A DNA stretch of 64,000 bases from Naegleria gruberi (Eukaryota), in the NCBI GenBank assembly GCA_000004985.1, contig GG738927.1, one strand, 5' to 3'. Position numbers and translations under genes: made by a program. Shown piece by piece: positions 1 to 62,853 of the stretch. The notes under the pieces were generated by a model. It made no database searches. It worked only from the letters and a program-made list of their open reading frames with translations, and had not been told where the DNA came from. Each line of letters starts with the position of its first letter. The first letter of the stretch is position 1.

Positions 1-199
1 GAGGGCGAAATGAATGGTATTCGTACTGGAGAATTCTCTTCCTCCTCATCAAACACTCTCCCCAGTACACATTTCACTTCTTCCAATTCTGTTGTGTTGA
101 TAATATGATGAATGAATCTTTGGATAATCAAAATCCAAATAATATGAAACGATTGAATTGACAGAATTTCTGATATGTGAATCAGAAATAACTTCAAAT

Positions 200-1177
200 T
201 CAGGTCTCATTTTGAAATGAATTTCCCAAATTGACTGTAACTCCTTTCTGTAATTTCTTAATTAGAATATCTGGTTTGGTGAAGAGTACTATTTTTCTTG
301 TGTCCATTAATTCTGGAATACTGTTCATAAATTTAAACATCCTTTTGGTATCTTGAATTCTCAAAGTTTGCGAATCATCTTCAGCTAGATATTGATCTAT
401 CTCTGAAAGTGAGATCACCAAAAAGATTGTTTCTGGCATGGAAGCCAAAGACTGCATCCATGTTCTTCTTTCAGTTCTAGCCCCTCCCACATCCCTGAAA
501 TAGCCATACCTGAATTCAAATTGTTTGCTTGAATTTGTACATTCATAACACCACGTCAAAGGAAGAAAGCTTTCGTTTGGATTTTCAATATTTTCCAAGA
601 ATTCTGGTAAATTTTCCAGCATTTGAAGGTTCAGTCTTGAATGTAAATTGATGCTATTTTTGTGTTCATTGCAATATTGTGAAATATTTAAACTTATTTC
701 ATTCCATCTAATTTCGTATAATTCTCGCATATTTGGAATTTTCCAAACATGGATTAATAATTCACAAAAATCAAAATTAGAAACTTGTGGAAAGGAATCG
801 AATAAATCCCAATCTTTTATCCTGATAATTTCCTCAATTTTATCCAAAGTCGATTCAAATCTCTCTAAAATCAACCCTTTCATTTGCTTTCTTTCACTTT
901 CTTCCAAAATACTCCACAATTTTCCCATCATTGAACAACAAGCATACTGCAAATCATGCTCAAACTCTATTTTACTCGAATAAAACCATTCCTTCCTCAA
1001 AATATGTTTTGCCAAATAATACAATGTTGATTTTCCACTATTGGCTGTTCCAAAAAGTGAGCAGCCCTCACCTATTTTTCTCCTAATGGGTTGTTGTTGA
1101 TTGGTTGCATCCGAAGGCAGTTGTTGCTGCTGATGATGATGATTATTTGGTATCGGATGTGATTGTTGTGCTCCCAT
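200..1177 (-). CDS. G-protein alpha subunit-like protein (divergent, switch II reads DVGGAR). The C-terminus is probably incomplete or continues in an exon beyond the window start
   Basis: N-terminal MGAQQS myristoylation motif; P-loop GEGCSLFGTANSGKST; DVGGAR in place of DVGGQR; TKPD in place of NKxD. ATG at 1175-1177 with A-rich upstream; the track start at 1204 lies 9 codons upstream. The ORF stops about 20 aa after TKPD, whereas Gα normally has about 80 aa more. Confidence 0.6.
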   Translation of the reverse strand: MGAQQSHPIPNNHHHQQQQLPSDATNQQQPIRRKIGEGCSLFGTANSGKSTLYYLAKHILRKEWFYSSKIEFEHDLQYACCSMMGKLWSILEESERKQMKGLILERFESTLDKIEEIIRIKDWDLFDSFPQVSNFDFCELLIHVWKIPNMRELYEIRWNEISLNISQYCNEHKNSINLHSRLNLQMLENLPEFLENIENPNESFLPLTWCYECTNSSKQFEFRYGYFRDVGGARTERRTWMQSLASMPETIFLVISLSEIDQYLAEDDSQTLRIQDTKRMFKFMNSIPELMDTRKIVLFTKPDILIKKLQKGVTVNLGNSFQNET

Positions 1178-1380
1178 TTTTTTCTCTAAGGAAAAGTTCA
1201 CCATCTTTTCTTTTCAATTTTTTGTAATTTTTGATATAGTTTACAATAAATAGCAGCTCATATATTAGCAATTATTGAGATCATTTTTGAACATTGTTGC
1301 ATACTGGACGGAAACATAGAACAAATCGTTTCTTTTCCAATTCCAGTTCAGAAAAAATTGTCACAACCATAACCACCACC

Positions 1381-9773: not shown

Positions 9774-12700
9774 CTAACTTGACAAATAACGAGCCTCCTT
9801 CCTCTTCCTCCTCTCTTCTTCACTTGTTTCTACACATGTTGTAATACCATTTACTCTATCAGTAATGAAATTTGTATACTTATTTTCTGTATAATATTCT
9901 GAAGTTTTTCTATATTTGTTCAGTCCTTGCAAAGTGCAATCAGGTTCAAATTCTTGCTTCATTTTAGCATTATCATCACTTAGTCCAGTAGAAATTCTTT
10001 GTTTGTCCTTGTTTGGAGTTAAATCAAAGAGTTTTGTTTGCCTTAATCGTTTTTTACCGTTCTTTGATTGAGTTGATGAGGTAGTGCTTTGGGTGTCCTC
10101 TTGATTGTGAATAGATTGTAGAATGGAATCACTATGTGAAATGAAACTCTCTTGATGATTTTCGAGTGGATGAATCTCTGAAGGCAGTTGTGATGGAGAG
10201 GAGGCACCTGCTCCCAATTCTGGTAAATCAGTATCTATTTTATGTTGTACACCATTAACTTCTTCATGCTTGGAATTATTTACGAGATTTAGTAATTTAT
10301 CAGGAATGCAGAATATCAATTTTTCCACATTAATCAACAAGCCAGATAAAGCATCCTTCCTTTCATTTGGTTCTGCTTTGTTAATTTTCCTCTTCCATGA
10401 TGCAAGTTTCTTCTCAAACCTCTCCTTTCCGAAACTTGATAATTGGGCTACTGATTTAAATCCTTCTTCCGAAAGTCCAGAAATTATTTCCTGTAATTTA
10501 GTTATTAAAGCATTCACTTGATCGATGAAAGATGTACTCATCACAGAGTCTTTTAATTGTGATAGGTTTGTAAAAATCTCCTGAATCTTTACTATTACAT
10601 CATCACGATTATATTGGTCACCAATGGCTTGCACAAATTTTGCAATCAAATCGCCATGTTCTCGAAAATTATTATACAAATAACTCAGGACGATTGTATT
10701 TGCTTCCGATCGTATTTGTGGCAAGACTTCATCATCGGTAATCATTTCATCAGTTATGTTTGATTGTTCCATTTTTTTTGTCTTGGTTTGCTGCTTCGAG
10801 AGAATTACCAGGTTGGATGCTGGCTTTGCATCGTTTTCTGTCGAATAGGTCTTGTGCCAATTTACGTGAGAGAGTTGATATTTCTTCATTCTCGTGTCTA
10901 ATGTATTTCAAAAGAAGACCACTATTCTCTTCAGATTCGGTTGCCAGGGTTGCGAATGAATCAGCCAATACAATCAAACAACTCATAATGAGTGGAGCAC
11001 CATCACTGGTAAAGACTTTAAGACAACTGATTACGAGTGGATAAAATTCTGAAGCCAGTGTTTTGGAAACGATCATAATCTTACCAATTGCAGCTACAGC
11101 ATGACTTTTCAATGATTTTGGTGCCTTTCTTGATTGCATACAGTTCCTTAGTAGATTGACATATCTAGAAAGAAATCCCTTGGTTAAGCTTTCAGTAACA
11201 GCCCTTTCTAAAACAAGTCCTTTGGCTTGTTCTCTTTGATTTTCCTTCATGCAGTTTTCCTCCTCACCTTCAAAATCATCCTCCTCTGATATCAGCTTGT
11301 CACTATTCTCGTTGAATTTCCTAGTAGCAATAGACCTAATTTCCAAACTATCCCTATAACAAATCTCTCCAACTAAATCAAAGAATGCACTCATCTTTTC
11401 GAGATCAGTTTCTTGTTTTTCAGTAAAATCCTTCCAAACTGAGCTCTCCACTTTTCCAATTCCATAGTAGGCCAATCTTCTATTACTCTCTGTAGAGTAT
11501 ACCAAGGAAAGGGTCTCACGACCAAATTCTAGTAGTAGGAACGCAATGTTTTCTTCCAAAAAGTTGTCCACAGACTTTTTGAAGGGTTGATTATTGCTTA
11601 TTCTATATACCTCCTCTATAATTCTTATTTTCAATGAGATTAGCTTTCGATTACCTTCAATGTTGGAAATCAAATCTTTAAGGTTTTGAAGAATGTTTTC
11701 AAAAGGAATGAATACCAAAAAACTAGAGTCTAACTTGAGCAACAACAACATGGTGAATATTGCTGTTGTTAAATCTAGCTTCTCCCTACAATACTCAACC
11801 AGAGATCTCAAACTCAAGTTAGGGAAGTAAGTCTTGATTCCACTGAATAAAATCAGCCATGGATCGATTAATTCAGTATTTCTTTTACAGGTTACATTGA
11901 TGAAAAAGCACTATAACTTACGTGATTGATTGCAACAATAAACCGAACTTGAACTTGGATTGAGGATCTACAAAATAGGAAACAAACAGATTGCATATTC
12001 TCTGCTTAACAGATGAGTGTGTATCCTTTCCAATACAGGATACAAGTTCTGACCAGTCAATCTTCAAACCTTGAATGGTCAGTTTGTCAAACAAGTTGAA
12101 CACTGATAGTATGGATTCTTTGCAAAATAGAGGGCCTTCAAGTGATAAAGCTCTCAAAGTGTTGAGCAATTTGGGAATGAATTTGTAGTAGACTTTTTCG
12201 AGAAATTCTACGTGCATTCTCTTACAAGAAATGTCATCATCCAAGTCATTTGATTCATGTTGGAACAGAATACACTCACTTTTTGTGGATGAAAATCTCA
12301 CTTTAACATGCGAACTTTGTTGTAATCTTCTACTAAGGCTTTCGAATGTTTCATCAATGAATGGTACCATATTCTTTGGTTGTTGTTCCAAAAATAACAT
12401 GGTGTTATCATATAAGGATTGACCTAATTTCTCAATCACATTATTCTTGTATAATTGATATAAATCCAACAATTCGACGCTTTTTTCAAAGTTGTCTCTA
12501 CACAATAATAAATCAAAAGCTCTGGTGTAGGGATTTCTTTGTATTAGACCAAATGAAGCATTAATACTCTGTACTCTTGTTGTCTTTGACTTGTCAGAGA
12601 TGTGGTCAAGGCAATTATTCTAATTACCTTAATAATCATATTTGAAATGTAACTTACCAAGAATTTGTTAAACTCAACAGCATAATTATTCCAATCAACC

Positions 12701-20647: not shown

Positions 20648-23600
20648 TTATTTCTTCTTCTTGGTAGAGTAACTTGTTTCTTTTGGTGTTGGTAGCTTTT
20701 TCTTTGGTTTCTCTTCCTCAGATTCCGAACTTTCTATCTTCTTTTTAGTTTCATATTTCATATCATCATCGGATTCTTCAGAGTCATACTTCTTTGCTTT
20801 CTTTGAAACAGGTGATTTGAGTGGTTTCTCTATCTTCTTTGGTGATGGACACCCATCAGAAGAGTCGTCATCTGAACTTTCTTTCTTCTTTTCACTCTTT
20901 TTAGTTTTCCATGTTTCTGTTTCTTCCTCTTCGTCATCCAATACTTCATGAATGTTTGTGAGCTCGTCTTTGGATCTCTTGACATAAATGTGAGATTCAC
21001 GAGTTCTCAATACTAATTTTCTAGACCGATACCAAGATTTGTTCATTTTTGATTCTAAGCTCATTGTTTGAAAGTTAATTGTGTTGCCATTAGAGAGTTC
21101 GTATAGAGAATTTGTAGCCTTTTTTGAGCTTGACTTTTGAGCTTTGAATAACCTGTATGCTTGTTCCACTAGTTTTGCTTCTTCTTCACCAAGTACATTT
21201 CTACCAGAGCCTATCCCAAGTATCCATTGATACTTGGTAAACTTTTTCTTTCCTACTGACTTGTTCTCTATTTTTTCATCAACATAGGCATCTCTAAAAA
21301 AGTTTCTATTATGTGGATGGAATGAGCCAACAACATATTGACGGGTTGGCTCATATGTTATAAATTCCAAATGTGGAGGGAGGTCACTCTTTGGTTCCTT
21401 TGGTTGAATAATTCCATTAATATCGTTAAGTGAATACTCAAAGAATAGTTTCATCTTTTTCTCCTCAACTACGTATGTTGTTCTTGCCTTAATGTGATTA
21501 AAAAGCTGACTAGCAGATATAAATTCAGAATTCCAACTGTACCTAGGAAGACGAATTTGTGTATAGTCATGATATTTTGACTTGGAAACCGTCTTTTCGG
21601 CAGATTCAACATCATTTCCTGCTCCAATTGATTTCAGTCCTCCTCTAAAATTGGCATGCTTATAGGCATGTCTGATGAGGAGAATTTTGGCAAGACCTGT
21701 GACATTATGAAGTTTGGCTCTTGGTTGAGGCTGTCTAAAGTATCTTCTATTATGTTTGTAGAAATGATCCCCTATCAAAATATCATTTTGAACTCTTTTT
21801 TCTTCATAGCCAGCTACTCCAACTCTAAAGCCACGGAGAGCATACTTGGTTAACCTTAATTCGTCTTATGAAATTATTAGAATTTAATTTTAAAGTACTC
21901 ACAAGTTGTAGATTGTCTATCAACGTCTACAATATTGCATCTTGTCTTTATGGCTTGAATGGCTCTTGGTAATGCGTAAACTTGAGAGCCATCAAAACCA
22001 ACACAACAACAATTCACATCGAATCCAATTAAGACTTCAGCCTTTTGTTGACCAAGAGATTTGTAAATTTTAAAAATTACGTAAACTTACTGGAGATTTG
22101 TAAATTCTCAAAATTACTTGCACTGTCCTTACTGAGCTGATAAACTTGAATGTAATAGCATTTTCAGTTCTGATCAACAAAATATCATCATAATTTGTGC
22201 CTTCTTCGGTGGACTTTGGAGAGGAGTATTTTTTGGATTTTTTAGTGAGCTTGTTGAACTTGTTGCTATCATTTGCATTTTCTGGTTTTGCAAAATGTGG
22301 AATGTTTTTGATATTCTTTTTGAATAATTCAAAAAGGTAAAAAATCTTCTTTTCGGCTTCCTTTTCATCCAAACCATAAATGAATAAATCTATATCACTG
22401 TTTTTCCAATAGGATTTTCTAAAATAGTTGAAAAGTTCTTCATCCAAATCATCTTGTTCGTATTTTTTGAATGAGCTTGCTTTTTTGGCTCGAACAGGTT
22501 TATCGTCCTCAGAACTTGTTGCTGAAAAATATCCATCTGCAACAGACCCATTATCATTATCAGAATTAGAACCATCATCCTCATCCCAGAGCACTTTTTT
22601 CTTTGCTTGTTGCATTACTCCACCTTGGAAAGGATCAACCTTTTGAAATCTACTGTAACGGTTTTCTTGTAGCAAGTCTTTTCTATCCAATTTAGCTTTG
22701 AGCATGCATGCCAAAATTCCACCACCTAATTTTTAAATATTATTGAAAATTGAATAATTAAAAATATTAAAGAAAGACATACCTGCTGCGAATACATTAC
22801 TCCAATCCATATCTTTAAATAGACCACAAGTTAGAGCGTTAAATTGAGTGAAGAATTCTTCTCTATCAGAAACAATTTCTGGGATTGGTGGCAATTTGAG
22901 TCTTGAATATTCATTGATAAGTTCAGAACATTCAACAGGGTTTTCAAAATCAAAAAGCAAAGGTAGGGTACTTGGAGGATCGCATGGTTTGAGTAATTCT
23001 CTGGTAGAATGTTCATTACCAAAAACACTAACCAAATGAATGTAAGGATCTGAAAGAATCTGATTTTCTCTATCTGAAACATATAAATTTCTCAAAAAGT
23101 CTTCCTCTTTTTTGATTTTTAAATTATTAGATCCAATATCTTCGATTGGATAACGAAGAGGATCTAAAAAGTCTAAAAGTCCTTGGAGTTTGAATTCTTT
23201 GGCCTCTTTGTAAACCAGTTTTCTCTGAGACATTTCTCTTGGGACTGAAGTGAAGGTTGCACTCTCCAAATATTCGTACAATACAGAAAAGACTTCACTA
23301 TCTCTGTCAAGGAATATTTCACGGTTGGTACTTGCTTGAATCAATTGAGGGAAAATACTTTCTGGATGGACAAGTAACTTTTCAATACCAATGCAAAATT
23401 TCACACCTCTTACATTGAAAACAATTGGTTCCTTTTTCAAAAAGGCCTCTCTTTTTCTGAGTTCTTCTCTTTCCTGTTCAAGATCAACCTCAGCCTTTTT
23501 CAAAAAGTCTTCCATGACAGTCTTTTCCTTGAGTGTAAGCTTTGAAAACATATCCAACCATTTTTCATCACTTTCGTTTTGATTAGAATGGAGAGTGTTA

Positions 23601-24407
23601 TGTTGAGAAACTCTGTATTCTTTGATTTCAGGTGTATCTTCCTTTTCTTCCATTCTTTGGTGTCTTTGATTGGAATTGTGTTGCTTGATCAATTCGGCAA
23701 CTCTTGCACTTAATTTACTTGTACCAAAGTAATCAGATTCTATCAGCAAAGCTTTTAACTTTTCAATGGTATCTTCAGTTATATTTTCCCACAAACCTAC
23801 ATATGTGGTGGATCCTGTGTGAATTAAATAAATGTCACTCGTCATCACAACTAAACATTCTTAACCTACCAGTTCTAATATGCTCCAAAATGATTGGAAA
23901 ATAATCTGGATTACTCTCACTCAACAAGATACAGCCATTCTCATCACGATCAACCTTAAAATCAGAATTCAACATGGTCTTGATCATATTCTCTCTTCTA
24001 TTAATGGTAGAAAGTGAGGTAACAAACATTTTCCCTCCGACCATCAATTTGACAATATTTTCACCTGATTGCAAGATTTCCTTCACCTTTTCACTATTCA
24101 GATGATCATCTTGTTGGTCATCCATCTTGTTGCCATTAAACTTTTCTAGAACTTCGATTTCCTTCATCTTTTGTTGATTTCTTCTCCTTTCTTCATCGAT
24201 TTTGTGGAGAGCATCAATTCGGACTGTTTCTAATTCTTCTCTCTCTTTGATGTATTGTGGATCATCTTTTGAAGAGGAAAATGATGATGGTTTTGGTGCA
24301 TAGGATGAAGATGACGAAGAGCTTGGTTCTTCTGCTTTGCGTTTCTTCTGATGTTCGAAGGCGGAGGATGAGCTTACTTTCCTTGCCGTTTGTTTGGTTC
24401 GGGCCAT
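20648..24407 (-). CDS. Giant multi-exon protein. From N- to C-terminus: histone-H3-tail-like N-terminus (MARTKQTARK), BTB/T1 domain, coiled-coil, second BTB/T1 domain, conserved Cys-rich block (IGFDVNCCCVGFDGSQVYALPRA), and a K/E/S-rich tail
   Basis: Four track ORFs on the same strand are joined by frame-preserving introns. Intron 23815-23869 is 55 nt (GTAGGT..CAG). Intron 22736-22792 is 57 nt (GTATGT..TAG) and removes an in-frame TAA. Intron 22042-22090 is 49 nt (GTAAGT..AAG). Intron 21855-21892 is 38 nt (GTGAGT..AAG). ATG at 24407 with aaaaaaaaATGgcc. BTB/T1 blocks: IVKLMVGGKMFVTSLSTI...DRDENGCILLSESNPDYFPIILEHIRTG and IVFNVRGVKFCIGIEKLLVHPESIF...FLDRDSEVFSVLYEYLES. Confidence 0.6.
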
Positions 24408-34086: not shown

Positions 34087-37000
34087 ATGTATTCAAACAA
34101 CAACAAGTGTCATTGTGGTTTAATTGCCAAGCAAGGAACGACCTCGAAGGGAGAAAATCAGGGTAGAAAGTACACCTCCTGTTCTAAAAGTATGACTGAT
34201 AAGAGTCGATGCAAATTCTTCAAGTGGTTAGATTCATCAGAACAAACAGCAACAACCAACATATCATCTTCTTCATCATCCTTCAAAAGCAATAGCAAAT
34301 TACAGCACAGTGAGCAGGCTTTTGATGATACTTTGAACAAGACGATACAATTGATGAATAGAGTGCTTCCTTCTTCCTTGTTATCATCAACAAGTGGTTC
34401 TTCTTCTTCATCATCAAATAACAAGTCTCCTTCCAACAACACTAATAGCCAGTGCTCATCTCTCACACTCTCACAATTGTGCTCCAGTATGGAAGACTTG
34501 AATATTGACAAAGATCTTTCAAAGCCTTCTTCTTCTCAAGCTATTGATAGAGACTTCATATTGAATGATAGTCTTTTTCCTTCTTCTTCTTCAGAAGCAA
34601 GCAAGAATAGTCTTCCTCTGATTGGAAACAATCAGCATAAAGGAGGAACATCATCTTCATCGTTACCAAATTCTCTCCTTGAAGAATGTATGCAAAAGGA
34701 ATTAAATAGCAAACAATTGGAGGCTGTCTGTGCTAGCGAACATGATTGTGTATGTGTTTATAGTGGACCGGGATCTGGTAAGACAAAGGTAAGTTGTTGT
34801 TATTATTGGATGGTAGAGGGAATTAATAATTAATTATTTGATGAATATTCATCTTGTGATGATGTGATGAATTTTTTTTTAATTTTTATTTAATTTTTTT
34901 AAAAAATTCATAACGGTCATGGATCCAAATTTTAGACCATCACCAACAGGATTGCCTACTTGTGTATTGTTAAAGGAATTGAACCAAGGAATGTATTTGC
35001 CATGACTTTTACTAACAAGGCTGCTCAGGAGATGAAAACAAGACTTGTTCACCTTGTGAAATTGTACGATTTTCAAAAGAGAATTAATGCAAAGGATTTC
35101 AGTCATATTGGAACGTTTCATGCAGTTTGTGCTAATATTTTGAGAAATGAGATGCATCATTTGACTCGTATTGTTGGATTGGATCAGAAATTTATGATAT
35201 TTGATTCGGAAGAGCAGCTGTCATAATTAGGAGCTTGTACAAGTCATCAACTAATCATTCCATTAGAAGNNNNNNNNNNNNNNNNNNNNNNNNNNNNNNN
35301 NNNNNNNNNNNNNNNNNNNCTTTTAAAAAATTCGTAACGGTCATTGTAAACTTTGGGTGGATCCAAATTTTAGACCATCACCTACAGGATTGCCTACTTG
35401 TGTATTGTTAAAGGAATTGAACCAAGGAATGTATTTGCCATGACTTTTACTAACAAGGCTGCTCAGGAGATGAAAACAAGACTTGTTCACCTTGTGAAAT
35501 TGTACGATTTTCAAATTAATGCAAAGGATTTCAAGACTTGTTCACCTTGTGAAATTGTACGATTTTCAAATTAATGCAAAGGATTTCAGTCATATTGGAA
35601 CGTTTCATGCAGTTTGTGCTAATATTTTGAGAAATGAGATGCATCATTTGACTCGTCTTGTTGGATTGGATCAGAAATTTATGATATTTGATTCGGAAGA
35701 GCAGCTGTCAATAATTAGGAGCTTGTACAAGTCATCAACTAATCATTTCATTAGAAGTTTACTTCCATTGAGTTTGTCTTTGGAGGATATGGAGAAGAAA
35801 CTCTCTCCAACTCTAGTTTTACAAACGATATCACGATGTAAGAATCAACAGGTTTCAGCTGATGAATATTCGAAAGCATTCCATCAAGAAATTGAGGAAA
35901 CGGTCATTGCTGAACTATTTGTAGAATATCAACAGTATTTATCGAAACACAATGGGGTGGATTTTGATGATTTATTGCTTCATGTTGTGTACTTGTTTGA
36001 AAAATTCCCTCTAGTGAGAGAAAAGTATGCCAATCAATGTGAAGTATTATTGGTCGATGAATTTCAAGATATCAACAAGTTACAATACAAGATTGCCATG
36101 CATTTGAACTCAAAGAGGAAGAACATCTTCTTGGTTGGTGATTCCGATCAAAACATTTACACTTTCAGATTCAGTGATAGCTCAATAATGCGGGAAGTTA
36201 TCAAAAAGTATGAGAAGGAGGGAAAGAGCATGAAAGTCATCATGATGAATGAAAACTATCGATCCACAAGAAGTATTGTCCAATTTTCAGACAAAATAAT
36301 AGCTAGCAATTCTAACAGATTAAGAACTATCAGCTCTACCACTTCAAACACCACGGGTTTACCAGTTTCGATAGTCAGTTGCTCTGATGAAGCCGAGTTC
36401 ATTACAAATGAAATTGTAAAACTCACAAACATGAATAACAACATTCAATATTGCGACTTTGCAATCCTTATCAGAGTCAACTCTGCTTCTCGAGTATTCG
36501 AAGACATTTTTGATAGGAAAAAGTTGCCTTACAGAATTTTGAATTCCACAAGATTTTACGACTCTATGGAAGTGAAAGATATTCTTTCCTATGCAAAAGC
36601 TATTGCAAATCCAGATAATGATCACTTCCTGTTGAGCTGTGTGAATGTTCCAAGAAGATGCATCACTGAGGAGACAAAGTCCAAGTTGATAAAGCTTGCA
36701 GCTCAGAATAAGATGTCTCTGAGGTCAATTATCAAGAATCATAACAAGGAAATTGCTGGACATCTAGGAGCCAATGAGTTACAAACACTCATTTCCACAA
36801 TAGATTTTATCGAAAAGTCTCAAATTAATCTTCATTCTCCTTCAACTATTATGCAAGATATTATTCGGGTGATTGATTATGAATCCTACTTGAAATTCAC
36901 ACAGAAGAATATGTTCGAAACAAGATGGGAGAATTTGAAAGAGTTAATTAACATGTGTCAAGAATTTGAGTCCAAATCAACCATTCCCTCAATTTCATCA

Positions 37001-49245: not shown

Positions 49246-52200
49246 TTATTTGTTTTGTTTCACTAAACTATCGAAATCAATTGTCTTCTTCAATTTCTTT
49301 GAAGCGTTTTCAACTATTCTATTATTCTTATTCATTCGTTTGAGGAATTCAGTATTGTATCTCAATGAATAATGTGCAAAACGAAGTGATTCAATATTGA
49401 TATCCATTGCTTGAGCAATAAAATCTTCATCACTAATAATTTCGTAAGAGGCTACCTCAAGAGCTGTAACATCGTGCTGTATAGCTCTCAGAACAATATC
49501 TCTATCATTTCTCATTTCAAACAATGCATAACAGAGGGCAGAATAACTTGTTTCATGACTAACCGCGTGCATTACAATTTCCTTATCGTTTAGGAATTCA
49601 GGTACTGCAAATTGAAGTGTGTCTTGATGGTTTTGGGCACATTTTAGAACAACATTTCTGTTATGTATAAACTTAAGAGGTACATATTGCAAAACCTTTC
49701 CATTGACAGAAGCACACTCCAAAACAAATTCTTCATCGTTTTGCAGTTCTTCACTGGCATAAAGGAATGCAACAGCATCGCTTTTGATGGCTTTTAGCAT
49801 AATTTCTCTATTATTTTTAAATTCATTCTTTAACTCTGCAGACAAGTGCATAATTGAATCACCACTTAGCTCTAGTGATCTCAAAGCTATTTCTCTGTCT
49901 TCTCTTAACCTAATTGGTACGTTAAGTATATCGTAAGTTTTTGGTTCAATCTCCAAAATAAAGTTCCTATCCATTTTCAGTCTATTGGAAACATACAAAA
50001 GATTATTCATATTTACATTTACAGCCATAAGGGCAAACTGTCTATCATTTTTAAAAGAATAGTCTAAATCATTTAGTGATCTAAGTCTTAATGCAATCAT
50101 TGCTGCTTCCTTATTAAGATTCACTGGTTTCTTTAAAAATTCTGCAGGCAACCATTTTCTCAATGCTTCTAATACTTCTTCATCATTTTTCATTTCTTCA
50201 GAGATATGTTGATAACACTCTGCTGATATTTTTAAAGCTGTAAGGATGACTTCCTTATCGTTCTTCAATTCTTCAGATGCATACTGTAAGGTACTTGCAT
50301 CTTGACTGACAGCATTTAAAATAAGCTCTCTATCATTTGCAAGTGATTCTGGAACGTAATGAATTACATAACCATAAATCTTTGCCATCTTTCTCATAAA
50401 ATCTACATTACTCTTTAATCGATCTGAAACACATTCAAAAAAATAATGTCCGTACCCTGTCTCTGTATAAGATATTGCTGCTTCAACTATTTCCTCATCA
50501 TCTCTATATTGTTCTGGAACATTCTTTAGATTATTTCGATCGTATCTACATGATTCATAAACAATCTCTCTATCTAATTCTATTTCATTGTAATCACTCA
50601 ATCTGAACCCATTTCTTAGTGCAATTATTAATAATTCTCTATCATTTAGGAGAGAGCGACTTGCATATTTAAATTCACTTCCATAAAGTTGAATAGCTGT
50701 TAAAACTATTTCTCTATCTTGTTTGAATTCCTGTGGCAAAGTTTCGATGCTTCCTGTTCTTTTAGCATGTTCCAATATTAAATCTCTATCTTCTTTCAAA
50801 TTATATCCAAAGTATTGAGAAATAGTATTAAATGAATTTCTAATTGCTCTTAAAACAAATTCTCTGTCTCTTCTCACAGATTCAGGAGCATATTCTAAGA
50901 AGGTACTGTCTTTAATTATTGTACACTCTAATATTTCTGTATCCATTCTCAATTCCTTAGACGCAAAGGTAAAATTTGTTGAGTCAAATAAAATTGCCTC
51001 TAATACCAGTTCTCTGTCGTTCTTCAGCTCATCAGAAGCATATTCTAGAGCCCCATAATGTTGCTTTACAGCTAATCTGATCAATTCTCTATCATTTCTA
51101 AACTCTTCATTTAAATTCTCTAAAACTTTACGCTCGGATAGTATACAGTCTAAAATTAATTGTCTATCAGTTTTTAACTCGTCGTGAGATATATTTTCGA
51201 AACACGCTGGATCAATGTTGACGATTCTTTTTTGTCGTGATGCATTAAGTGCTTTGAAATCCTCTTTGGAATACCACATGGCATTGCTGTATTTACATTG
51301 AATATCCAATAACTCGTCAATAAAATCATTATCATTGGCTAGAGATGAATTAACGTAATCAAGAAAAGTGAAAAAATTATTTGCTCCAGAAATACAGTTC
51401 AAAATGAATTCTCTATCTTCTTTCAGATCTGTCAGTGAGGAGAGCGAGTGAGCATCTTTCGAAACAGCAAGAGTCGCTATTTCCCTATCCTTCCAGAAAA
51501 TAGGATCTGCATATTGTAAAGCCCTTCCAGATTTAACAGCATCATAAACTATTTCTCTATCCTTTTTAAATTGTGGTGAAACATCTCTCAAACTATCTCC
51601 TTTCTTCTTTACAATTTCCAAAACAAAATCTCTATCTGATCGCAAGCTTTCGGCTGCGTATAAGAAATAAAAACCTGGAGAGTTAGCAGCACTCAATACT
51701 ATTTCCTTATCAGCAGTAAATTCTTTTGGTGCAAATCTAAGAGTACACGTATATCTAGAACTTTTGGTGGATAATAGAACTATTTCTCGATCTTTTAAAT
51801 TGTCTGGAACATATTCTAGAACTGAACCGTCTTTCTTGATTGCTTTCAAAATAACATCTCTATTATTTTTCAAATTGGCTGAAACATATTGTAAACATTT
51901 TGGTTGTTGTTCAACAGCCAACCTCGCAATTTCGTCATCATCGTGAAAATGTGGTAAATGTTCGAACAGAGTTGAATCCACAAACATTTTTGGTTTACAT
52001 TTTAGTGCCTTCAACACAAAATTCTTGTCAGTCTTCAACCTTTGACTTGCAAATTCAATTGCAGAAACGTTCTCTTTGATAGCTGCCAGTACAACCAGTT
52101 CATCATTCTTCAAATCATCCGATGCATGTTCCAAAACACGACCATCAGCACGAACAATTTTAAGAAGTGCTAATTTACAATCATTGTCTGGTAACGGATT

Positions 52201-52413
52201 TTCTTCAATGTACTCCACAGCAGATTGATTTTTTCTCTTAAAGAATGCTGTTAAATGATCATAAACCTTTTTGTTTTTCGCAATTCTTTCCTCGTAAACT
52301 GATGCAAAGTGTTGAGAAAGCAATCGGTCCGATGATGATCCGCCATAAATTTCGGGATGGTCATCTTGATGATGAAAATTTATAAAAAGATCGCCAAAGA
52401 CAACTTTCGACAT
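49246..52413 (-). CDS. Giant protein (1055 aa) made of tandem DUF4116-like repeats
   Basis: Roughly 30 reiterations of an approximately 36-aa unit (L-K-x-D-R-E/D-I/F-V-L-x-A-h-x...L-x-Y-A-S-x-E-L) in a single exon. ATG at 52413 after an A-run. Confidence 0.6.
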   Translation of the reverse strand: MSKVVFGDLFINFHHQDDHPEIYGGSSSDRLLSQHFASVYEERIAKNKKVYDHLTAFFKRKNQSAVEYIEENPLPDNDCKLALLKIVRADGRVLEHASDDLKNDELVVLAAIKENVSAIEFASQRLKTDKNFVLKALKCKPKMFVDSTLFEHLPHFHDDDEIARLAVEQQPKCLQYVSANLKNNRDVILKAIKKDGSVLEYVPDNLKDREIVLLSTKSSRYTCTLRFAPKEFTADKEIVLSAANSPGFYFLYAAESLRSDRDFVLEIVKKKGDSLRDVSPQFKKDREIVYDAVKSGRALQYADPIFWKDREIATLAVSKDAHSLSSLTDLKEDREFILNCISGANNFFTFLDYVNSSLANDNDFIDELLDIQCKYSNAMWYSKEDFKALNASRQKRIVNIDPACFENISHDELKTDRQLILDCILSERKVLENLNEEFRNDRELIRLAVKQHYGALEYASDELKNDRELVLEAILFDSTNFTFASKELRMDTEILECTIIKDSTFLEYAPESVRRDREFVLRAIRNSFNTISQYFGYNLKEDRDLILEHAKRTGSIETLPQEFKQDREIVLTAIQLYGSEFKYASRSLLNDRELLIIALRNGFRLSDYNEIELDREIVYESCRYDRNNLKNVPEQYRDDEEIVEAAISYTETGYGHYFFECVSDRLKSNVDFMRKMAKIYGYVIHYVPESLANDRELILNAVSQDASTLQYASEELKNDKEVILTALKISAECYQHISEEMKNDEEVLEALRKWLPAEFLKKPVNLNKEAAMIALRLRSLNDLDYSFKNDRQFALMAVNVNMNNLLYVSNRLKMDRNFILEIEPKTYDILNVPIRLREDREIALRSLELSGDSIMHLSAELKNEFKNNREIMLKAIKSDAVAFLYASEELQNDEEFVLECASVNGKVLQYVPLKFIHNRNVVLKCAQNHQDTLQFAVPEFLNDKEIVMHAVSHETSYSALCYALFEMRNDRDIVLRAIQHDVTALEVASYEIISDEDFIAQAMDINIESLRFAHYSLRYNTEFLKRMNKNNRIVENASKKLKKTIDFDSLVKQNK

Positions 52414-52486
52414 TTTTTTTTGAATGTTTTTCCGAAAGGAAACTTTGAAATTGATTCTTCAAATTATTGTAAAGCTTTTGAATATT

Positions 52487-53637
52487 TCAATCTGAACATG
52501 TGGTTAGTATGATGTCTGATAGTACTGATGGTTGCCTACAGAGTGTTTTGTAAAGATATGTTATTAATCTTGTGGTGAACAATGATTTGGAAATGTAAAC
52601 ATGTTCATTGGTTGACTGTGTGGATGATCTCAATAGTGATTCATAACATTCGAGGTCAGATAGCGTATTGATGAAATGATATTCAAATTTTTCGCCTTCT
52701 CTTATATATTCAAACACATTTTGATATCTGTCAATAATGGAATTCAATGCAATTCGTTCACTACTCTTTAAGTTTTCAATTTGTCTCAATTCCACTCTAT
52801 CACTATTGGATTCCAACTCTGAGGTGTTTGAATTAGCTAGTTTTGCAAGAAACAGATCTGCCATTGTAAAAATTACAACGACTCTCAAATCTTTTGTAAA
52901 TTTGTTTGTTAAAATCTCTTTAAATAACTCAATTGATTCGTGCATTTCATTAAAACCCTCATCAAAGCAGTCTTTGGTCCAAATCTTGCTGTTTGAGCCA
53001 ACTCTGAAAACCTCCTCCATCTATTCTCTGTGACTGAAGACAGCCGATTCTTTACATCAACCAAATTATATACTTCACCAGTTGGGTTGATCTTTAAATC
53101 TGAAATTCGCTCTCTTTTTTGGGACATATATTTCAGTAGATCAGTAGAAATTCTTCCTCTATCAAGTAATGAGAAAAACTTGTCATAATTTGCAAAATTC
53201 GTCCAGTTATTGTGACTATTACTAAATATTCTTTCCTTTGCAAATTCTCTAACTTGCACAGTACTCTTCCACAACTCCACAAATAATAAGTAATTATCCG
53301 AAAATCCTTTCAATATATTAAACCATGTTACGTTGGGAGTAGGAGAGCCGAGTACTTTTTTCACATTTTGAATTTCCAAACTATCATCCGAACTAATTCT
53401 AAACACTTCCTCTCTCACCTGATCATTCATTTCATTCAATAAACTTGCAAATGCATCAATGCAACGATTTGTTATTAGAATTTCCAACTTTTCCGATTTG
53501 TAAATATCTTGTTGTGTGTAACTTGCAAGTGAGCGTATGAAGACTGTTTTGCCACTTCCTTCAAATCCCAACAGAAGAATAGTAGGCAGGGGAGGTGATG
53601 TAGGTTTGTTAACAACTTTTGATTTCTTTCCTCCCAT
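52487..53637 (-). CDS. Divergent G-protein alpha-like protein (switch II reads RVGSNS instead of DVGGQR); two exons
   Basis: MGGKKSK myristoylation-like N-terminus. P-loop LLLGFEGSGKT. After a 35-nt intron (53021-53055, GTAAAG..ATAG), ...TGEVYNLVD joins MEEVFRVGSNSKIWTKDCFDEGFNEMHESIELFKEILTNKFTKDLRVVVIFTMADLF. This aligns to Gα TGIVE...[23 protein letters not shown]...NRMHESMKLF...NKKDLF. Confidence 0.55.
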
Positions 53638-55136: not shown

Positions 55137-55862
55137 ATGTCCACAACAACAACTACTCTAGGAACAATATCCACTATCAATTCGAATATAACCTTGATGC
55201 AAACATGTATTCGAATGGATCCGTCTGGTTTCACATATGTGCCTTGGATTTGGGACATCTTTGGTGAGTGTGTTCACGATATTCGTGAGCAATCTTCCTT
55301 CGCTATTGGTATGATTTCGTTAGGTTTCTGGATTATGGCCCTGCTGCCACAAGTCATTGCCAATTTCAAGAACAGAGATGCCAGCTCGCTGTCAACTGGT
55401 TATCTCATCCAAATTACATTAGGAGATGCAGCAAGTATGACTGCAGGTATCATGAGTGGTCAATTAATTACTCAGATTTTGTTGAGTGCCTATTTTGTGT
55501 TGATGGATGTAGTCATGATTGTTCAATATATAATTTTCGTGATAATTCCAAAGATTTATAGGAAAATTGTAAAGAAAGAGGAACGTGGGGATGATTTGAA
55601 AGGCAAGGAAATGAAGGAAGTTGTGAATAATGAGAAAGTGGTAAAGAAGGAAGAAAATACAAAGCATGAGATTGTGAAGAGCTCAGTGATGATTTCGTTA
55701 TTGTCTGTTTTGGTGATGGTTGCATTCTTTGCTTCAATTGTTGGCTTTTCACGAGCTAGTTCAGAAAGTTATGCGACTACACTTTCGAATAATAGAATTT
55801 CTAGGAAACTTTTACATGCTGTTCCAGAGGGAAAGGAATATCCACAGAAGAAGCTATCACAA
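55137..55862 (+). CDS. PQ-loop repeat (cystinosin/PQLC2-like) membrane transporter, 3'-partial (runs into a 1267-N gap)
   Basis: PQ-loop motif FWIMALLPQVIANFKNRDASSLSTGY; multiple TM helices. ATG at 55137. Confidence 0.5.
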
Positions 55863-57129
55863 NNNNNNNNNNNNNNNNNNNNNNNNNNNNNNNNNNNNNN
55901 NNNNNNNNNNNNNNNNNNNNNNNNNNNNNNNNNNNNNNNNNNNNNNNNNNNNNNNNNNNNNNNNNNNNNNNNNNNNNNNNNNNNNNNNNNNNNNNNNNNN
56001 NNNNNNNNNNNNNNNNNNNNNNNNNNNNNNNNNNNNNNNNNNNNNNNNNNNNNNNNNNNNNNNNNNNNNNNNNNNNNNNNNNNNNNNNNNNNNNNNNNNN
56101 NNNNNNNNNNNNNNNNNNNNNNNNNNNNNNNNNNNNNNNNNNNNNNNNNNNNNNNNNNNNNNNNNNNNNNNNNNNNNNNNNNNNNNNNNNNNNNNNNNNN
56201 NNNNNNNNNNNNNNNNNNNNNNNNNNNNNNNNNNNNNNNNNNNNNNNNNNNNNNNNNNNNNNNNNNNNNNNNNNNNNNNNNNNNNNNNNNNNNNNNNNNN
56301 NNNNNNNNNNNNNNNNNNNNNNNNNNNNNNNNNNNNNNNNNNNNNNNNNNNNNNNNNNNNNNNNNNNNNNNNNNNNNNNNNNNNNNNNNNNNNNNNNNNN
56401 NNNNNNNNNNNNNNNNNNNNNNNNNNNNNNNNNNNNNNNNNNNNNNNNNNNNNNNNNNNNNNNNNNNNNNNNNNNNNNNNNNNNNNNNNNNNNNNNNNNN
56501 NNNNNNNNNNNNNNNNNNNNNNNNNNNNNNNNNNNNNNNNNNNNNNNNNNNNNNNNNNNNNNNNNNNNNNNNNNNNNNNNNNNNNNNNNNNNNNNNNNNN
56601 NNNNNNNNNNNNNNNNNNNNNNNNNNNNNNNNNNNNNNNNNNNNNNNNNNNNNNNNNNNNNNNNNNNNNNNNNNNNNNNNNNNNNNNNNNNNNNNNNNNN
56701 NNNNNNNNNNNNNNNNNNNNNNNNNNNNNNNNNNNNNNNNNNNNNNNNNNNNNNNNNNNNNNNNNNNNNNNNNNNNNNNNNNNNNNNNNNNNNNNNNNNN
56801 NNNNNNNNNNNNNNNNNNNNNNNNNNNNNNNNNNNNNNNNNNNNNNNNNNNNNNNNNNNNNNNNNNNNNNNNNNNNNNNNNNNNNNNNNNNNNNNNNNNN
56901 NNNNNNNNNNNNNNNNNNNNNNNNNNNNNNNNNNNNNNNNNNNNNNNNNNNNNNNNNNNNNNNNNNNNNNNNNNNNNNNNNNNNNNNNNNNNNNNNNNNN
57001 NNNNNNNNNNNNNNNNNNNNNNNNNNNNNNNNNNNNNNNNNNNNNNNNNNNNNNNNNNNNNNNNNNNNNNNNNNNNNNNNNNNNNNNNNNNNNNNNNNNN
57101 NNNNNNNNNNNNNNNNNNNNNNNNNNNNN
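55863..57129. other. Assembly gap (1267 N)
   Basis: Run of N. Confidence 1.
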
Positions 57130-57335
57130 ATATCATGCTCCTGTAAAAAGATTGTAACCATATTTCTGGAAAACTTATTGAGCGAGCTCATGACTAGTAA
57201 TTGCTTTGTTTGGAGGAATGACATGATATGACTCCAATTATCTTCATTCAACAAACGAAAGTGGAATAATGGTATAGATTTGTAAGGGTTGATCAATTTG
57301 GCTTTGGTTATATCTAAATCCCTCTCTTTGAACAT
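57130..57335 (-). CDS. N-terminal fragment of an F-box-like protein continuing into the N-gap
   Basis: MFKERDLDI...LNEDNWSHIMSFLQTKQLLVMSSLNKFSRNM resembles an F-box. The ORF runs into N's. Confidence 0.3.
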
Positions 57336-59072: not shown

Positions 59073-60138
59073 TTGGAAACGAATCATACAATTGATGAAT
59101 ATATTCCTCATCAGAGTGTCTCCTCGGAACCTCTTTGGTTGAGAGAATTACAAACCTTGGAACCTGTAAAAATTCAAATTGAACATTTTGTTGATGTTCA
59201 TCATTTGCGAATTGTTGTTATTTCGGATACTCATGGATTTCATCGTTACTTGAAATTTCCTCCTTGTCCCGAGGGGAAGAAGATGATTTTAATTCATTGT
59301 GGTGATATGACAGAGCATGGAACTATGGATGAGTTGAGGAAATTTAATGAATGGTTGGGACACATTCGAGTTAATTTCTCTCAGATTTTTGTATTGCTGT
59401 AGGTTAAATTAATTATTAGGTATTTATTCTAATAATATATTATTGATCCGATTTATTTTAAATAATTTATTGATCGGAATAATAGGAATCATGAAACTGA
59501 ATTTTCAAAATTTACTAAGCAAGGTTTGTTTGAAATCTATTGNNNNNNNNNNNNNNNNNNNNNNNNNNNNNNNNNNNNNNNNNNNNNNNNNNNNNNNNNN
59601 NNNNNNNNNNNNNNNNNNNNNNNNNNNNNNNNNNNNNNNNNNNNNNNNNNNNNNNNNNNNNNNNNNNNNNNNNNNNNNNNNNNNNNNNNNNNNNNNNNNN
59701 NNNNNNNNNNNNNNNNNNNNNNNNNNNNNNNNNNNNNNNNNNNNNNNNNNNNNNNNNNNNNNNNNNNNNNNNNNNNNNNNNNNNNNNNNNNNNNNNNNNN
59801 NNNNNNNNNNNNNNNNNNNNNNNNNNNNNNNNNNNNNNNNNNNNNNNNNNNNNNNNNNNNNNNNNNNNNNNNNNNNNNNNNNNNNNNNNNNNNNNNNNNN
59901 NNNNNNNNNNNNNNNNNNNNAATTATTGGATTTACACAAGCTCAAAATTCATCTCTTTGGACACATTCACTCAAAAAATGGTTATGAATTTTTGAGAAGA
60001 TCATACGTGTTGGAAGCTGCTAAAAAAGAAAAAGATGATAGCACGAAACAGTTGAAAACTGAACAAAGTAATGATGATATTCTATTTATTAATGCAGCAA
60101 ATTCACACAAATTCCAGCCATTCTACTTTGATTTGTAA
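59073..60138 (+). CDS. Calcineurin-like metallophosphoesterase (MPP superfamily); split by an intron and a 378-N gap
   Basis: Motifs VISDTHG (GDxHG), IHCGDMTEHG (GDxxDRG-like) and, after the gap, HLFGHIH (GH/GHxH). The exon boundary near 59391 is unresolved. Confidence 0.5.
59543..59920. other. Assembly gap (378 N)
   Basis: Run of N. Confidence 1.
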
Positions 60139-62803: not shown

Positions 62804-62853
62804 NNNNNNNNNNNNNNNNNNNNNNNNNNNNNNNNNNNNNNNNNNNNNNNNNN
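62804..62853. other. Scaffold gap (50 N) directly after the (GGGTTT)n array
   Basis: Run of exactly 50 N. Confidence 1.

What the first reader, a model, noticed from the sequence alone, without database searches (positions are those of the whole stretch)
52487..53637. Second divergent Gα-like gene: the switch II glycine-glutamine dipeptide is replaced (RVGSNS), with a 35-nt intron exactly at the switch region
There is an MGGKKSK N-terminus and a LLLGFEGSGKT P-loop. After a 35-nt GT..AG intron, RVGSNSKIWTKDCFDEGF...NEMHESIELF...TKDLRVVVIFTMADLF aligns closely to Gα [19 protein letters not shown]...NRMHESMKLF...NKKDLF, but lacks the catalytic Gln and the second Gly. The two overlapping track ORFs become one Gα-like protein only with this intron, so the call depends on it.
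Basis: partly seen in the sequence, partly recalled or inferred. Interest (0 to 1): 0.55.

Follow-up and report, generated by a model that had tools for sequence, protein, structure and literature searches.

The report
Frameshifted Gα-like pseudogene, not an intron
This locus in the amoeba Naegleria gruberi is a very divergent copy of a G-protein alpha subunit gene, and its two halves are separated by a small frame-breaking deletion rather than by the proposed 35-base intron, so it is most likely a recently disabled gene copy and of ordinary interest.

Summary
The window is Naegleria gruberi. ORF1 (53637..52909, minus strand) is identical to the annotated 242-aa "predicted protein". ORF1 and ORF2 (53020..52487) both match Gα. 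Only a joined model passes the Pfam G-alpha threshold (about 57 bits against 48.8).

The proposed 35-nt intron (53055..53021) is not supported. The closest paralogue, N. gruberi XP_002672604 (P0002), aligns in ORF1's frame straight through the "intron". That alignment continues 43 nt past the proposed acceptor: LVDVKNRLSSVTENRWRRFSELAQTARFG against LVDVKKYTTLGNRQARLRRWQELNSNAKFG. Homology moves to ORF2's frame only at 52966. The frame break therefore lies within 11 nt (52977..52967), where no intron fits.

"RVGSNS" is an out-of-frame reading of WRRFSELAQ. The real switch II site is DVKNR plus an insertion shared with P0002.

The locus also lacks 8–11 residues covering strand β4, which every relative has. 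The best reading is a single 3n+1 deletion in a member of a Naegleria-specific, catalytically degenerate Gα-like clade, making it a young pseudogene. A sequencing error cannot be excluded. The window's other Gα-like gene carries two frameshifts against its own intact paralogue.

The parts
52978..53637 (-). N-terminal 220 codons of the Gα-like gene in ORF1's frame (Met1 to Gly220). It holds the MGGKKSK N-terminus, the P-loop, the helical domain, strands β2-β3 and the degenerate switch II.
   Evidence: tblastn of P0002 residues 2-143 covers 53412..52978 in this frame. The family HMM matches positions 9-165 in this frame. Pfam G-alpha matches profile 23-190. ORF1 is identical to the annotated protein P0001.
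53545..53568 (-). G1 / P-loop GFEGSGKT (residues 24-31), which fits GxxxxGK[ST].
   Evidence: It aligns to GAGESGKS of Gαi1 in alignment A1.
53044..53058 (-). The true G3 / switch II site, DVKNR, in place of DVGGQ. Both glycines and the catalytic Gln are replaced. An insertion of about six residues follows and is shared only with paralogue P0002.
   Evidence: Alignment A1, tblastn and coordinates.
53021..53055 (-). The proposed 35-nt 'intron' (GTAAAG...AATAG). It is actually coding in ORF1's frame and lies within VKNRLSSVTENR, residues 195-206.
   Evidence: Homology to P0002 and to the family HMM runs through it in frame. It is 43% GC, against 33-34% for the flanking coding sequence and 33% for a verified 55-nt intron elsewhere in the window. 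It is one of 39 frame-restoring GT-AG pairs.
52967..52977 (-). Frame-break scar, CCAAAGACTGC. ORF1's frame changes to ORF2's frame (-1/+2) within these 11 nt. P0002 has 8 residues here (IVIQSLIS, the core of strand β4), which implies a net 13-nt (3n+1) deletion.
   Evidence: The tblastn HSPs end at 52978 and restart at 52966. The family HMM lacks positions 166-183. The K codon (52974..52972) and the D codon (52972..52970) overlap by one base. No downstream RNA structure was found, z = 0.60.
52490..52966 (-). C-terminal 159 codons in ORF2's frame (FDEGFNEMHES... to the C-terminus): α3, β5 with TMAD in place of NKxD, αG/α4, β6 with KFEYHFINTLS in place of TCAT, and α5 with the clade motif YISKSLF. 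The stop codon is at 52489..52487.
   Evidence: tblastn of P0002 residues 152-304 gives 44% identity. The family HMM matches positions 184-342 at 123.7 bits. Pfam G-alpha matches profile 226-319. The exhaustive phmmer search also supports it.
52909..52977 (-). Out-of-frame tail of the annotated 242-aa model (PKTALMRVLMKCTNQLSYLKRF plus stop).
   Evidence: The same DNA in ORF2's frame encodes the conserved DEGFNEMHESIELFKEIL, which matches DEEMNRMHESMKLF of Gαi.
52967..53020 (-). It is a non-homologous, out-of-frame reading of WRRFSELAQTARFGPK.
   Evidence: Shuffle test, 1642 of 5000. It is left unaligned by Pfam and by the family HMM.

Best explanation
The locus is one gene of a Naegleria-specific, catalytically degenerate Gα-like clade. 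Its reading frame is broken by a small 3n+1 deletion at 52977..52967 (minus strand). The net loss is 13 nt against the closest paralogue. The same lesion, or an adjacent one, removed most of strand β4 of the Ras-like domain. There is no intron.

Shown: the coding sequence runs in ORF1's frame from 53637 through the supposed intron to Gly220 at 52978. It resumes in ORF2's frame at 52966. The true switch II is DVKNR plus an insertion.

Inferred: translation of the genomic sequence as it stands gives the annotated 242-aa product. That product has a myristoylation-type N-terminus, P-loop, helical domain, β2-β3 and switch II, followed by 22 junk residues. It lacks β4-β6, the guanine-specificity motifs and α5, so it cannot be a working GTPase.

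Both halves are otherwise free of stops, although the gene is only 36-46% identical to its paralogue. The inactivation is therefore recent. This is a young pseudogene in a gene family that gains and loses copies.
For: 1. tblastn of P0002 (N. gruberi XP_002672604) aligns residues 2-143 to 53412..52978 in ORF1's frame, through 53055..53021. Residues 152-304 align to 52966..52514 in ORF2's frame.
2. A family HMM built from 7 relatives gives the same split: positions 9-165 in ORF1's frame and 184-342 in ORF2's frame.
3. The read-through plus frameshift model scores 167.1 bits as one domain. It also ranks first when P0002 is left out, 122.7 against 120.8. Smith-Waterman against P0002 gives 402 against 374. 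Pfam G-alpha aligns it as one stretch, residues 19-328, at 57.3 bits.
4. The ORF1-frame segment after the proposed donor matches P0002 at the collinear place; 13 of 5000 shuffles do as well. For the ORF2-frame head, 1642 of 5000 do as well.
5. All eight relatives and Gαi1 have 8-11 more residues (end of α2 and β4) where the frame breaks.
6. Other ORFs of up to 1055 aa in the window are intact. The window's other Gα-like gene has two frameshifts against its intact paralogue P0046, again with no room for introns.
7. Neither ORF2 nor the spliced 371-aa protein is present in a collection of 15 billion proteins that includes transcriptome assemblies.
8. Weak support: an AlphaFold2 model of ORF1 places β3 at residues 190-194 and a helix at 205-216, as expected for β3 and switch II/α2. 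Its mean pLDDT is only 56.
Against: No RNA or resequencing data could be consulted, so whether the lesion is real in the organism is inferred.

Both halves are free of stop codons (222 and 159 codons in a 33% GC genome). That fits an intact gene with a 1-nt consensus error as well as it fits a very young pseudogene.

Most of the scoring advantage over intron models comes from one paralogue, P0002. Without it the margin is about 2 bits.

The annotated P0002 model itself lacks the P-loop region, so the functional state of this sub-branch is unclear.

An assembly gap lies 2.2 kb upstream (55863..57129).
Confidence: 0.65

Rival explanations
1. The frame break is a consensus or assembly error, or an allele peculiar to the sequenced clone. 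The real gene would be an intact ORF of about 383 aa or slightly longer (...ARFGPKDCFDEGF...). It would encode a membrane-anchored pseudo-GTPase of the Gα-like clade with a shortened β4.
For: One added base in the A-run of CCAAAG restores a single 383-aa ORF that aligns as one G-alpha domain. No stop codon occurs in either half. The draft assembly has N-gaps nearby.
Against: Even the repaired protein lacks 8-11 residues of the central β4 strand that every relative has. A single 3n+1 deletion explains both the missing residues and the frameshift more economically than a 12-nt deletion plus a 1-nt error. The other long ORFs of the window show no such errors. The second Gα-like gene has lesions that are not homopolymer miscalls: by eye, against P0046, an extra 4 nt and a missing 2 nt.
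Confidence: 0.2
2. The truncated 242-aa product (P-loop, helical domain and switch II) is itself made and used, for example as a membrane-bound decoy or scaffold. ORF2 would then be dead sequence.
For: The annotated model P0001 is exactly this ORF. The N-terminus MGGKKS fits the N-myristoylation consensus MGxxx[ST] (general knowledge of the consensus).
Against: ORF2 remains fully open and 44% identical to P0002 over 157 residues, which is unexpected if it had long been dispensable. Half a Ras-like domain is unlikely to fold. The AlphaFold2 model of ORF1 has low confidence, pLDDT 56.
Confidence: 0.08
3. One reading: a 35-nt GT-AG spliceosomal intron at 53055..53021 joins ORF1 to ORF2, and RVGSNS is the switch II.
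For: GT and AG are present, and removing the stretch gives one 371-aa ORF that passes the Pfam G-alpha threshold at 56.9 bits.
Against: Homology to the closest paralogue and to the family profile continues in ORF1's frame through the 'intron' and for 43 nt past the acceptor. The ORF2-frame head shows only chance-level similarity. Thirty-eight other GT-AG pairs also restore the frame, and about ten score equally. At 35 nt and 43% GC it compares poorly with a verified 55-nt, 33% GC intron in the window. The published mean intron length for N. gruberi is 203 bp (PMC8296547). Relatives P0006, P0007 and P0011 come from metagenome assemblies and are presumably single uninterrupted ORFs across this region, on the assumption that such gene calling does not model introns.
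Confidence: 0.03
4. Programmed -1 ribosomal frameshifting, or transcriptional slippage, at CCA AAG A produces a full-length protein from the genomic sequence as it stands.
For: The required shift is -1. The K and D codons overlap by one base at an A AAG motif. Both halves are kept open.
Against: There is no X XXY YYZ slippery heptamer (read directly from the sequence). There is no stable downstream structure, z = 0.60. CCAAAGA occurs 28 times in the window, including inside intact long ORFs. Frameshifting would not restore the missing β4. The frame changes in the other Gα-like gene run in the opposite direction and do not sit at this motif.
Confidence: 0.02

Closest known systems
Heterotrimeric G protein α subunits (Pfam PF00503; e.g. 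human Gαi1, N. fowleri Gα1-13 of PMC9283941)
   Same: The domain order is the same: N-terminal MGxxxS lipidation signal, P-loop, all-helical insert, β2-β3 hairpin, switch II helix, the α3 motif N-x-M-H-E-S, then β5, β6 and α5. The joined protein passes the Pfam gathering score.
   Different: DVGGQ is replaced by DVKNR plus an insertion, NKxD by TMAD, and TCAT by INTL. Neither the switch I Arg nor the Thr aligns. Strand β4 is missing and the ORF is frame-broken.
N. gruberi paralogue XP_002672604 / NAEGRDRAFT_52122 (P0002)
   Same: It is the closest relative, at 36-46% identity. It shares the DVK switch II with the extra loop, TMAD, YQNVFE, and KFEYHxINxLS.
   Different: P0002 is one continuous frame with an intact β4 (FGIVIQSLISFD). 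Its annotated model lacks the roughly 75-aa P-loop region and carries a C-terminal extension of about 100 aa.
Naegleria / heterolobosean divergent Gα-like clade (P0003 and P0008 from N. lovaniensis, P0004 from N. gruberi, P0006/P0007/P0011 from metagenomes)
   Same: None has the catalytic Gln (DVGVD, TAGGK, DMGGV, ELGGD, DVGSP). All share the C-terminal signatures: F/KFEYHI.N, NSI..Y, and a C-terminal I/LS..L motif that most members have as YIS..L.
   Different: These members keep at least one switch II glycine and an [ST]K.D (mostly [ST]KPD) guanine motif, and they score 77-149 bits on Pfam G-alpha. The target and P0002 are further degenerate.
The other Gα-like gene of this window (3..1204, minus; model P0045) and its intact paralogue P0046
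   Same: It is a clade member whose annotated model is cut short by frame disruption. Homology continues in other frames with no room for introns.
   Different: It has two small frameshifts near the 3' end and a complete β4. Its switch II is DVGGAR, where only the Gln is lost.

Membership tests
Gα subunit (PF00503) | Profile match above the curated gathering score | tested here: met
   The joined models score 57.3 bits (read-through plus frameshift) or 56.9 bits (35-nt intron) against a cutoff of 48.8. ORF1 alone (25.3) and ORF2 alone (40.5) fall below it.
Gα subunit (PF00503) | G1 P-loop GxxxxGK[ST] | tested here: met
   GFEGSGKT at residues 24-31, 53568..53545.
Gα subunit (PF00503) | All-helical domain inserted between the P-loop/α1 and switch I | tested here: met
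   ORF1 aligns to profile positions 23-190. The AlphaFold2 model shows helices across residues 47-173, at low confidence (pLDDT 56).
Gα subunit (PF00503) | G3 / switch II DxxGQ with the catalytic glutamine | tested here: not met
   DVKNR at residues 194-198. Both Gly and the Gln are replaced, and about six residues are inserted.
Gα subunit (PF00503) | Switch I arginine finger and Mg-binding threonine (RxxT) | tested here: inconclusive
   In alignment A1, Ser aligns to Gαi1 R178 and Arg aligns to T181. Identity here is low, and other Arg residues lie within 2-3 positions in KRER.
Gα subunit (PF00503) | G4 NKxD and G5 TCAT guanine-recognition motifs | tested here: not met
   TMAD (52867..52856) and INTL within KFEYHFINTLS.
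Gα subunit (PF00503) | Complete six-stranded Ras-like sheet (β4 present) in one uninterrupted ORF | tested here: not met
   8-11 residues are missing at α2/β4 and the frame breaks at 52977..52967.
Gα subunit (PF00503) | GTP binding and hydrolysis; coupling to Gβγ and receptors | not testable with these tools
   This needs biochemistry. The motif losses predict no GTPase activity (inference).
Naegleria-specific divergent Gα-like clade | Significant whole-length similarity to the clade, with its C-terminal signatures (KFEYH.IN, NSI..Y, YIS..L) and no switch II Gln | tested here: met
   Exhaustive phmmer gives P0002 at 2.8e-24, P0003 at 4.4e-13 and P0004 at 2.3e-10. The family HMM scores 167 bits. 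See also the alignment and the source organisms.
   True, but not specific: 39 GT-AG pairs do the same.
   Homology continues in the old frame through the stretch and 43 nt beyond it. In the new frame, homology begins only at 52966.
   It is 35 nt and 43% GC. One verified intron in the window is 55 nt and 33% GC. The published mean for N. gruberi is 203 bp (PMC8296547). Only one local comparator was available.
   The spliced 371-aa product and ORF2 are absent from the protein collection, but no read-level data were available.
Programmed -1 ribosomal frameshift site | Slippery heptamer X XXY YYZ followed by a stable structure 5-9 nt downstream | tested here: not met
   GGA CCA AAG ACU holds no such heptamer. 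The fold of 52985..52890 has z = 0.60.

The most novel reading that the evidence does not exclude
The frame breaks in both Gα-like genes of this window could be tolerated or used. In that reading, full-length proteins are made by recoding (ribosomal frameshifting or transcriptional slippage at short A-runs). N. gruberi would then express a set of lipid-anchored, nucleotide-independent Gα-like pseudo-GTPases, including one with a remodelled sheet that lacks β4.
Probability: 0.03. Interest if true: 0.7.

Novelty: new member of a known kind. Interest (0 to 1): 0.13.

Why it matters
The main value is a correction. The eye-catching feature, a micro-intron sitting exactly on a rewritten switch II, is an artefact of reading the wrong frame. 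The annotated 242-aa protein (XP model P0001) is a truncated reading of a frame-broken gene whose C-terminal half (ORF2) is unannotated.

There is a modest positive result. Naegleria carries a lineage-specific clade of Gα-like proteins that all lack the catalytic glutamine. At least two copies on this scaffold are decaying, which points to gain and loss of copies in the expanded Gα repertoire noted by earlier surveys (PMC3971589). This bears on counts of "functional" Gα genes in Naegleria. It does not change how G-protein signalling is understood.

Tried and rejected
ORF2 was used instead, which is how P0002 was found.
2. The word-indexed searches were uninformative. The first returned only the annotated ORF1. 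The profile search was swamped by canonical Gα.
3. Encoding contigs for P0001 and P0002 are not on record. The paralogue's DNA and intron structure could therefore not be compared.
4. Every alternative GT-AG intron (39 models) scored below the frameshift model. Introns downstream of 52978 would delete the conserved NEMHES motif.
5. The heptamer CCAAAGA occurs at the target's frame break and near the second shift of gene 1. I rejected it as a signal. It is common in the window (28 copies, some inside intact ORFs), and gene 1's shift lies about 9 nt downstream of its copy.
6. Programmed frameshifting has neither a slippery heptamer nor a downstream structure.
7. An apparent 14.5% GC island at 56-58 kb is an assembly gap of Ns.
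8. A metagenome scan for other alleles of the junction found nothing.
9. Fritz-Laylin 2010 and Anantharaman 2011 are not held in the paper library.
10. The AlphaFold2 model of ORF1 was too low in confidence (pLDDT 56) to justify a fold search.

Full report
**What is at the coordinates**

The gene lies on the minus strand. ORF1 (53637..52909, 242 aa) begins MGGKKSK and carries the P-loop GFEGSGKT. ORF2 (53020..52487, 177 aa) overlaps it in the -1/+2 frame. ORF2 holds RVGSNS, FDEGFNEMHESIELF and VVVIFTMADLF. The stretch 53055..53021 reads GTAAAG...AATAG and is 35 nt long. Removing it gives one 371-aa ORF.

Pfam G-alpha matches ORF1 at 25.3 bits (profile 23-190) and ORF2 at 40.5 bits (profile 226-319). 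Only a joined protein passes the gathering score, 56.9 against 48.8 bits. The raw observation therefore holds, and so does the call that this is a Gα-like gene split over two frames.

**Organism and annotation**

ORF1 is identical to an NCBI "predicted protein [Naegleria gruberi]" of 242 aa carrying PF00503. ORF2 and the spliced 371-aa protein are absent from a collection of about 15 billion proteins. N. gruberi NEG-M is reported at 33% GC, 1.7 exons per gene and a mean intron length of 203 bp (PMC8296547). The window itself is 31-36% GC outside its assembly gaps.

**Why the intron fails**

An exhaustive phmmer search with ORF2 found ten proteins at E ≤ 0.001. Seven of them form a small divergent Gα-like family:
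- P0002 (XP_002672604, NAEGRDRAFT_52122) and P0004, both from N. gruberi;
- P0003 and P0008 from N. lovaniensis;
- P0006, P0007 and P0011 from metagenome assemblies.

The other three are two fragmentary canonical-Gα models (P0009, P0010) and P0005, a repeat protein described under incidental observations.

tblastn of P0002 against the window is decisive. P0002 residues 2-143 align to 53412..52978 in ORF1's frame, straight through the proposed intron and 43 nt beyond its acceptor. The aligned stretch is LVDVKNRLS-SVTENRWRRFSELAQTARFG against LVDVKKYTTLGNRQARLRRWQELNSNAKFG. P0002 residues 152-304 then align to 52966..52514 in ORF2's frame at 44% identity.

A profile HMM of the seven relatives gives the same split. 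Positions 9-165 match ORF1's frame and positions 184-342 match ORF2's frame.

A shuffle test agrees. The ORF1-frame segment after the proposed donor matches P0002 at the collinear position, and only 13 of 5000 shuffles do as well. The ORF2-frame head MEEVFRVGSNSKIWTKDC has no better-than-chance match to any relative; 1642 of 5000 shuffles do as well.

The scores of the competing gene models were:

|---|---|---|---|---|
| Family HMM, 7 relatives | 167.1 bits, one domain | 156.8 bits, two domains | 157.6 bits | 43, 67 |
| Family HMM without P0002 | 122.7 bits | 120.5 bits | 120.8 bits | 52, 67 |
| Smith-Waterman against P0002 | 402 | 374 | not run | 52 |
| Pfam G-alpha | 57.3 bits, one stretch (residues 19-328) | 56.9 bits, two stretches | not run | 7, 51 |

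The read-through model ranks first of all 40 models with either family HMM. The GT..AG pair itself carries no information: 39 pairs in this region restore the frame, and about ten of them score alike.

The 35 nt are 43% GC. The flanking coding sequence is 33-34% GC. A verified 55-nt intron elsewhere in the window (23869..23815, GTAGGT...CACAG, which joins a BTB_2 domain) is 33% GC.

**What is really there**

With the correct frame, the region from switch I to strand β3 aligns to Gαi1 without gaps. LKINP is β2, YNLVD is β3, and the G3 site DVGGQ corresponds to D194-V-K-N-R198 at 53058..53044. An insertion of about six residues follows, shared only with P0002, and then a switch II helix NRWRRFSELAQT. 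"RVGSNS" (53005..52988) is the out-of-frame reading of WRRFSELAQ.

Other motifs are also degenerate: NKxD is TMAD, TCAT is INTL, and the switch I Arg and Thr do not align. The P-loop and the MGxxxS N-terminus are kept.

An AlphaFold2 model of ORF1, built on an alignment of 31 Gα sequences, is of low confidence (pLDDT 56). It does show β1, the helical domain, β2 (181-183), β3 (190-194) and a helix at 205-216 in the expected order.

**The frame break**

Homology leaves ORF1's frame at 52978 and enters ORF2's frame at 52966. The 11 nt between them (CCAAAGACTGC) correspond to 8 residues of P0002 (IVIQSLIS, the core of β4). That is a net loss of 13 nt, a 3n+1 number that gives exactly the observed -1/+2 shift.

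Against all eight relatives and Gαi1, the target is 8-11 residues short at the end of α2 and β4. No intron can fit here, and any intron further downstream would remove the conserved NEMHES motif. One deletion of 3n+1 bases explains both the missing strand and the frameshift.

There is no slippery heptamer, and no RNA structure downstream (z = 0.60). Programmed frameshifting therefore has no support.

**Pseudogene or error**

In favour of a real lesion:
- A central β-strand is missing whichever way the frame is repaired.
- The rest of the window carries intact ORFs of up to 1055 aa.
- The other Gα-like gene of the window (model P0045, 325 aa) is also cut short. Its intact N. gruberi paralogue P0046 (406 aa) aligns collinearly in three successive frames: 1057..221, 219..109 and 107..3. 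The gaps of 1 nt leave no room for introns.

In favour of caution:
- Both halves of the target are free of stops, even though the gene is only 36-46% identical to P0002. The lesion is therefore young, or is a 1-nt consensus error on top of an older in-frame deletion.
- The assembly has N-gaps, one of them 2.2 kb upstream.
- No read-level data were available.

My estimates are:

| Reading | Probability |
|---|---|
| Real frame-breaking deletion (young pseudogene) | about 0.65 |
| Sequence error or clone-specific allele | about 0.2 |
| Truncated product that is itself used | about 0.08 |
| Recoding (programmed frameshift or slippage) | about 0.02 |

**Comparison with what is known**

The fold family is Gα (PF00503), and the family profile reaches canonical Gα at E values down to 1e-33. 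N. gruberi is known to have a lineage-specific diversification of Gα (PMC3971589). N. fowleri has 13 putative Gα subunits, some of them self-activating (PMC9283941).

The clade found here lacks the catalytic Gln in every member: DVGVD, TAGGK, DMGGV, ELGGD, DVGSP and DVKK/N. It has its own C-terminal signatures, KFEYHI.N and a C-terminal I/LS..L motif that most members have as YIS..L. Most members keep [ST]K.D (mostly [ST]KPD) and score 77-149 bits on Pfam. The target and P0002 form a further degenerate sub-branch; P0002 scores only 19.5 bits on Pfam.

Intact members probably bind GTP but hydrolyse it poorly. The target sub-branch probably does not bind guanine nucleotides specifically. Both statements are inferences from the motifs.

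**Verdict**

The claimed feature, a micro-intron on a rewritten switch II, is not real. What remains is a frame-broken, probably dead member of a known kind of gene family, plus a correction to the annotation. Interest is low.

**Incidental observations**

- The neighbouring gene 49246..52413 (minus) encodes a 1055-aa protein with 20 DUF4116 repeats. It starts 73 nt after ORF2's stop codon.
- CCAAAGA is about twice as frequent in the window as expected.
- P0005 is a 732-aa repeat protein that matched ORF2 residues 123-166 in 11 stretches. This was not explained.

Noticed in passing
window 3..1204 (minus strand): The window's other Gα-like gene (switch II DVGGAR; JGI model P0045, 325 aa, ending at the stop at 200) carries two frameshifts near its 3' end. 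The intact N. gruberi paralogue P0046 (406 aa) aligns collinearly in three successive frames: 1057..221, 219..109 and 107..3. Only 1 nt lies between the pieces, so these are not introns. It looks like a second decaying copy on the same scaffold.
   Followed up: yes
window 49246..52413 (minus strand): A 1055-aa ORF made of 20 DUF4116 repeats (605 bits). It starts only 73 nt downstream of the Gα-like gene's stop codon, on the same strand. The spacer 52414..52486 is 22% GC. I did not test whether the two genes are co-transcribed or functionally linked.
   Followed up: no
window 23815..23869 (minus strand): A genuine 55-nt GT-AG intron (GTAGGT...CACAG, 33% GC, with in-frame stops). It joins the overlapping ORFs 23835..24407 and 22733..23848 and completes a BTB_2 domain (...ILEHIRTG | STTYVGLWENITEDTIEKL...). 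I used it as the local comparator for what a real N. gruberi intron looks like.
   Followed up: partly
window 35270..35319, 55863..57129, 59543..59920, 62804..62853: Runs of N (assembly gaps). The 1267-nt gap produces the apparent 14.5% GC dip at 56-58 kb, and it produces the spurious long ORFs listed at 55137..57335.
   Followed up: yes
window 10750..10889 (minus strand): Two long same-strand ORFs without Pfam hits (10750..11817 and 9774..10889) overlap by 140 nt. An A8 run lies at about 10772-10779. This could be another frameshift or intron, or simply two genes. It was not resolved.
   Followed up: no
whole window: The heptamer CCAAAGA occurs 28 times on both strands, against 13.9 ± 3.6 expected; none of 100 shuffles reached 28. 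It sits in the target's frame-break scar (52971..52977) and near gene 1's second shift (117..123). It also lies inside intact ORFs, so I treated it as a composition or codon-usage effect.
   Followed up: partly
protein P0002 (N. gruberi XP_002672604), not in the window: The annotated model of the closest paralogue starts inside the helical domain and has no P-loop; it aligns from target residue 75 onward. It also has a C-terminal extension of about 100 aa. Its model may be truncated or that gene may be degenerate as well. Its DNA could not be fetched.
   Followed up: partly
protein P0005 (732 aa), hit: A protein made of about 57-aa tandem repeats (LLSKYMKELICWYKQTICIDPVIKVYEGTYLLIQTDNMHWSCYQSIWRNLFADTNRQ) matched ORF2 residues 123-166 in 11 stretches at E = 4e-7. 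Its source and the meaning of the match are unknown, and the match is probably spurious.
   Followed up: no
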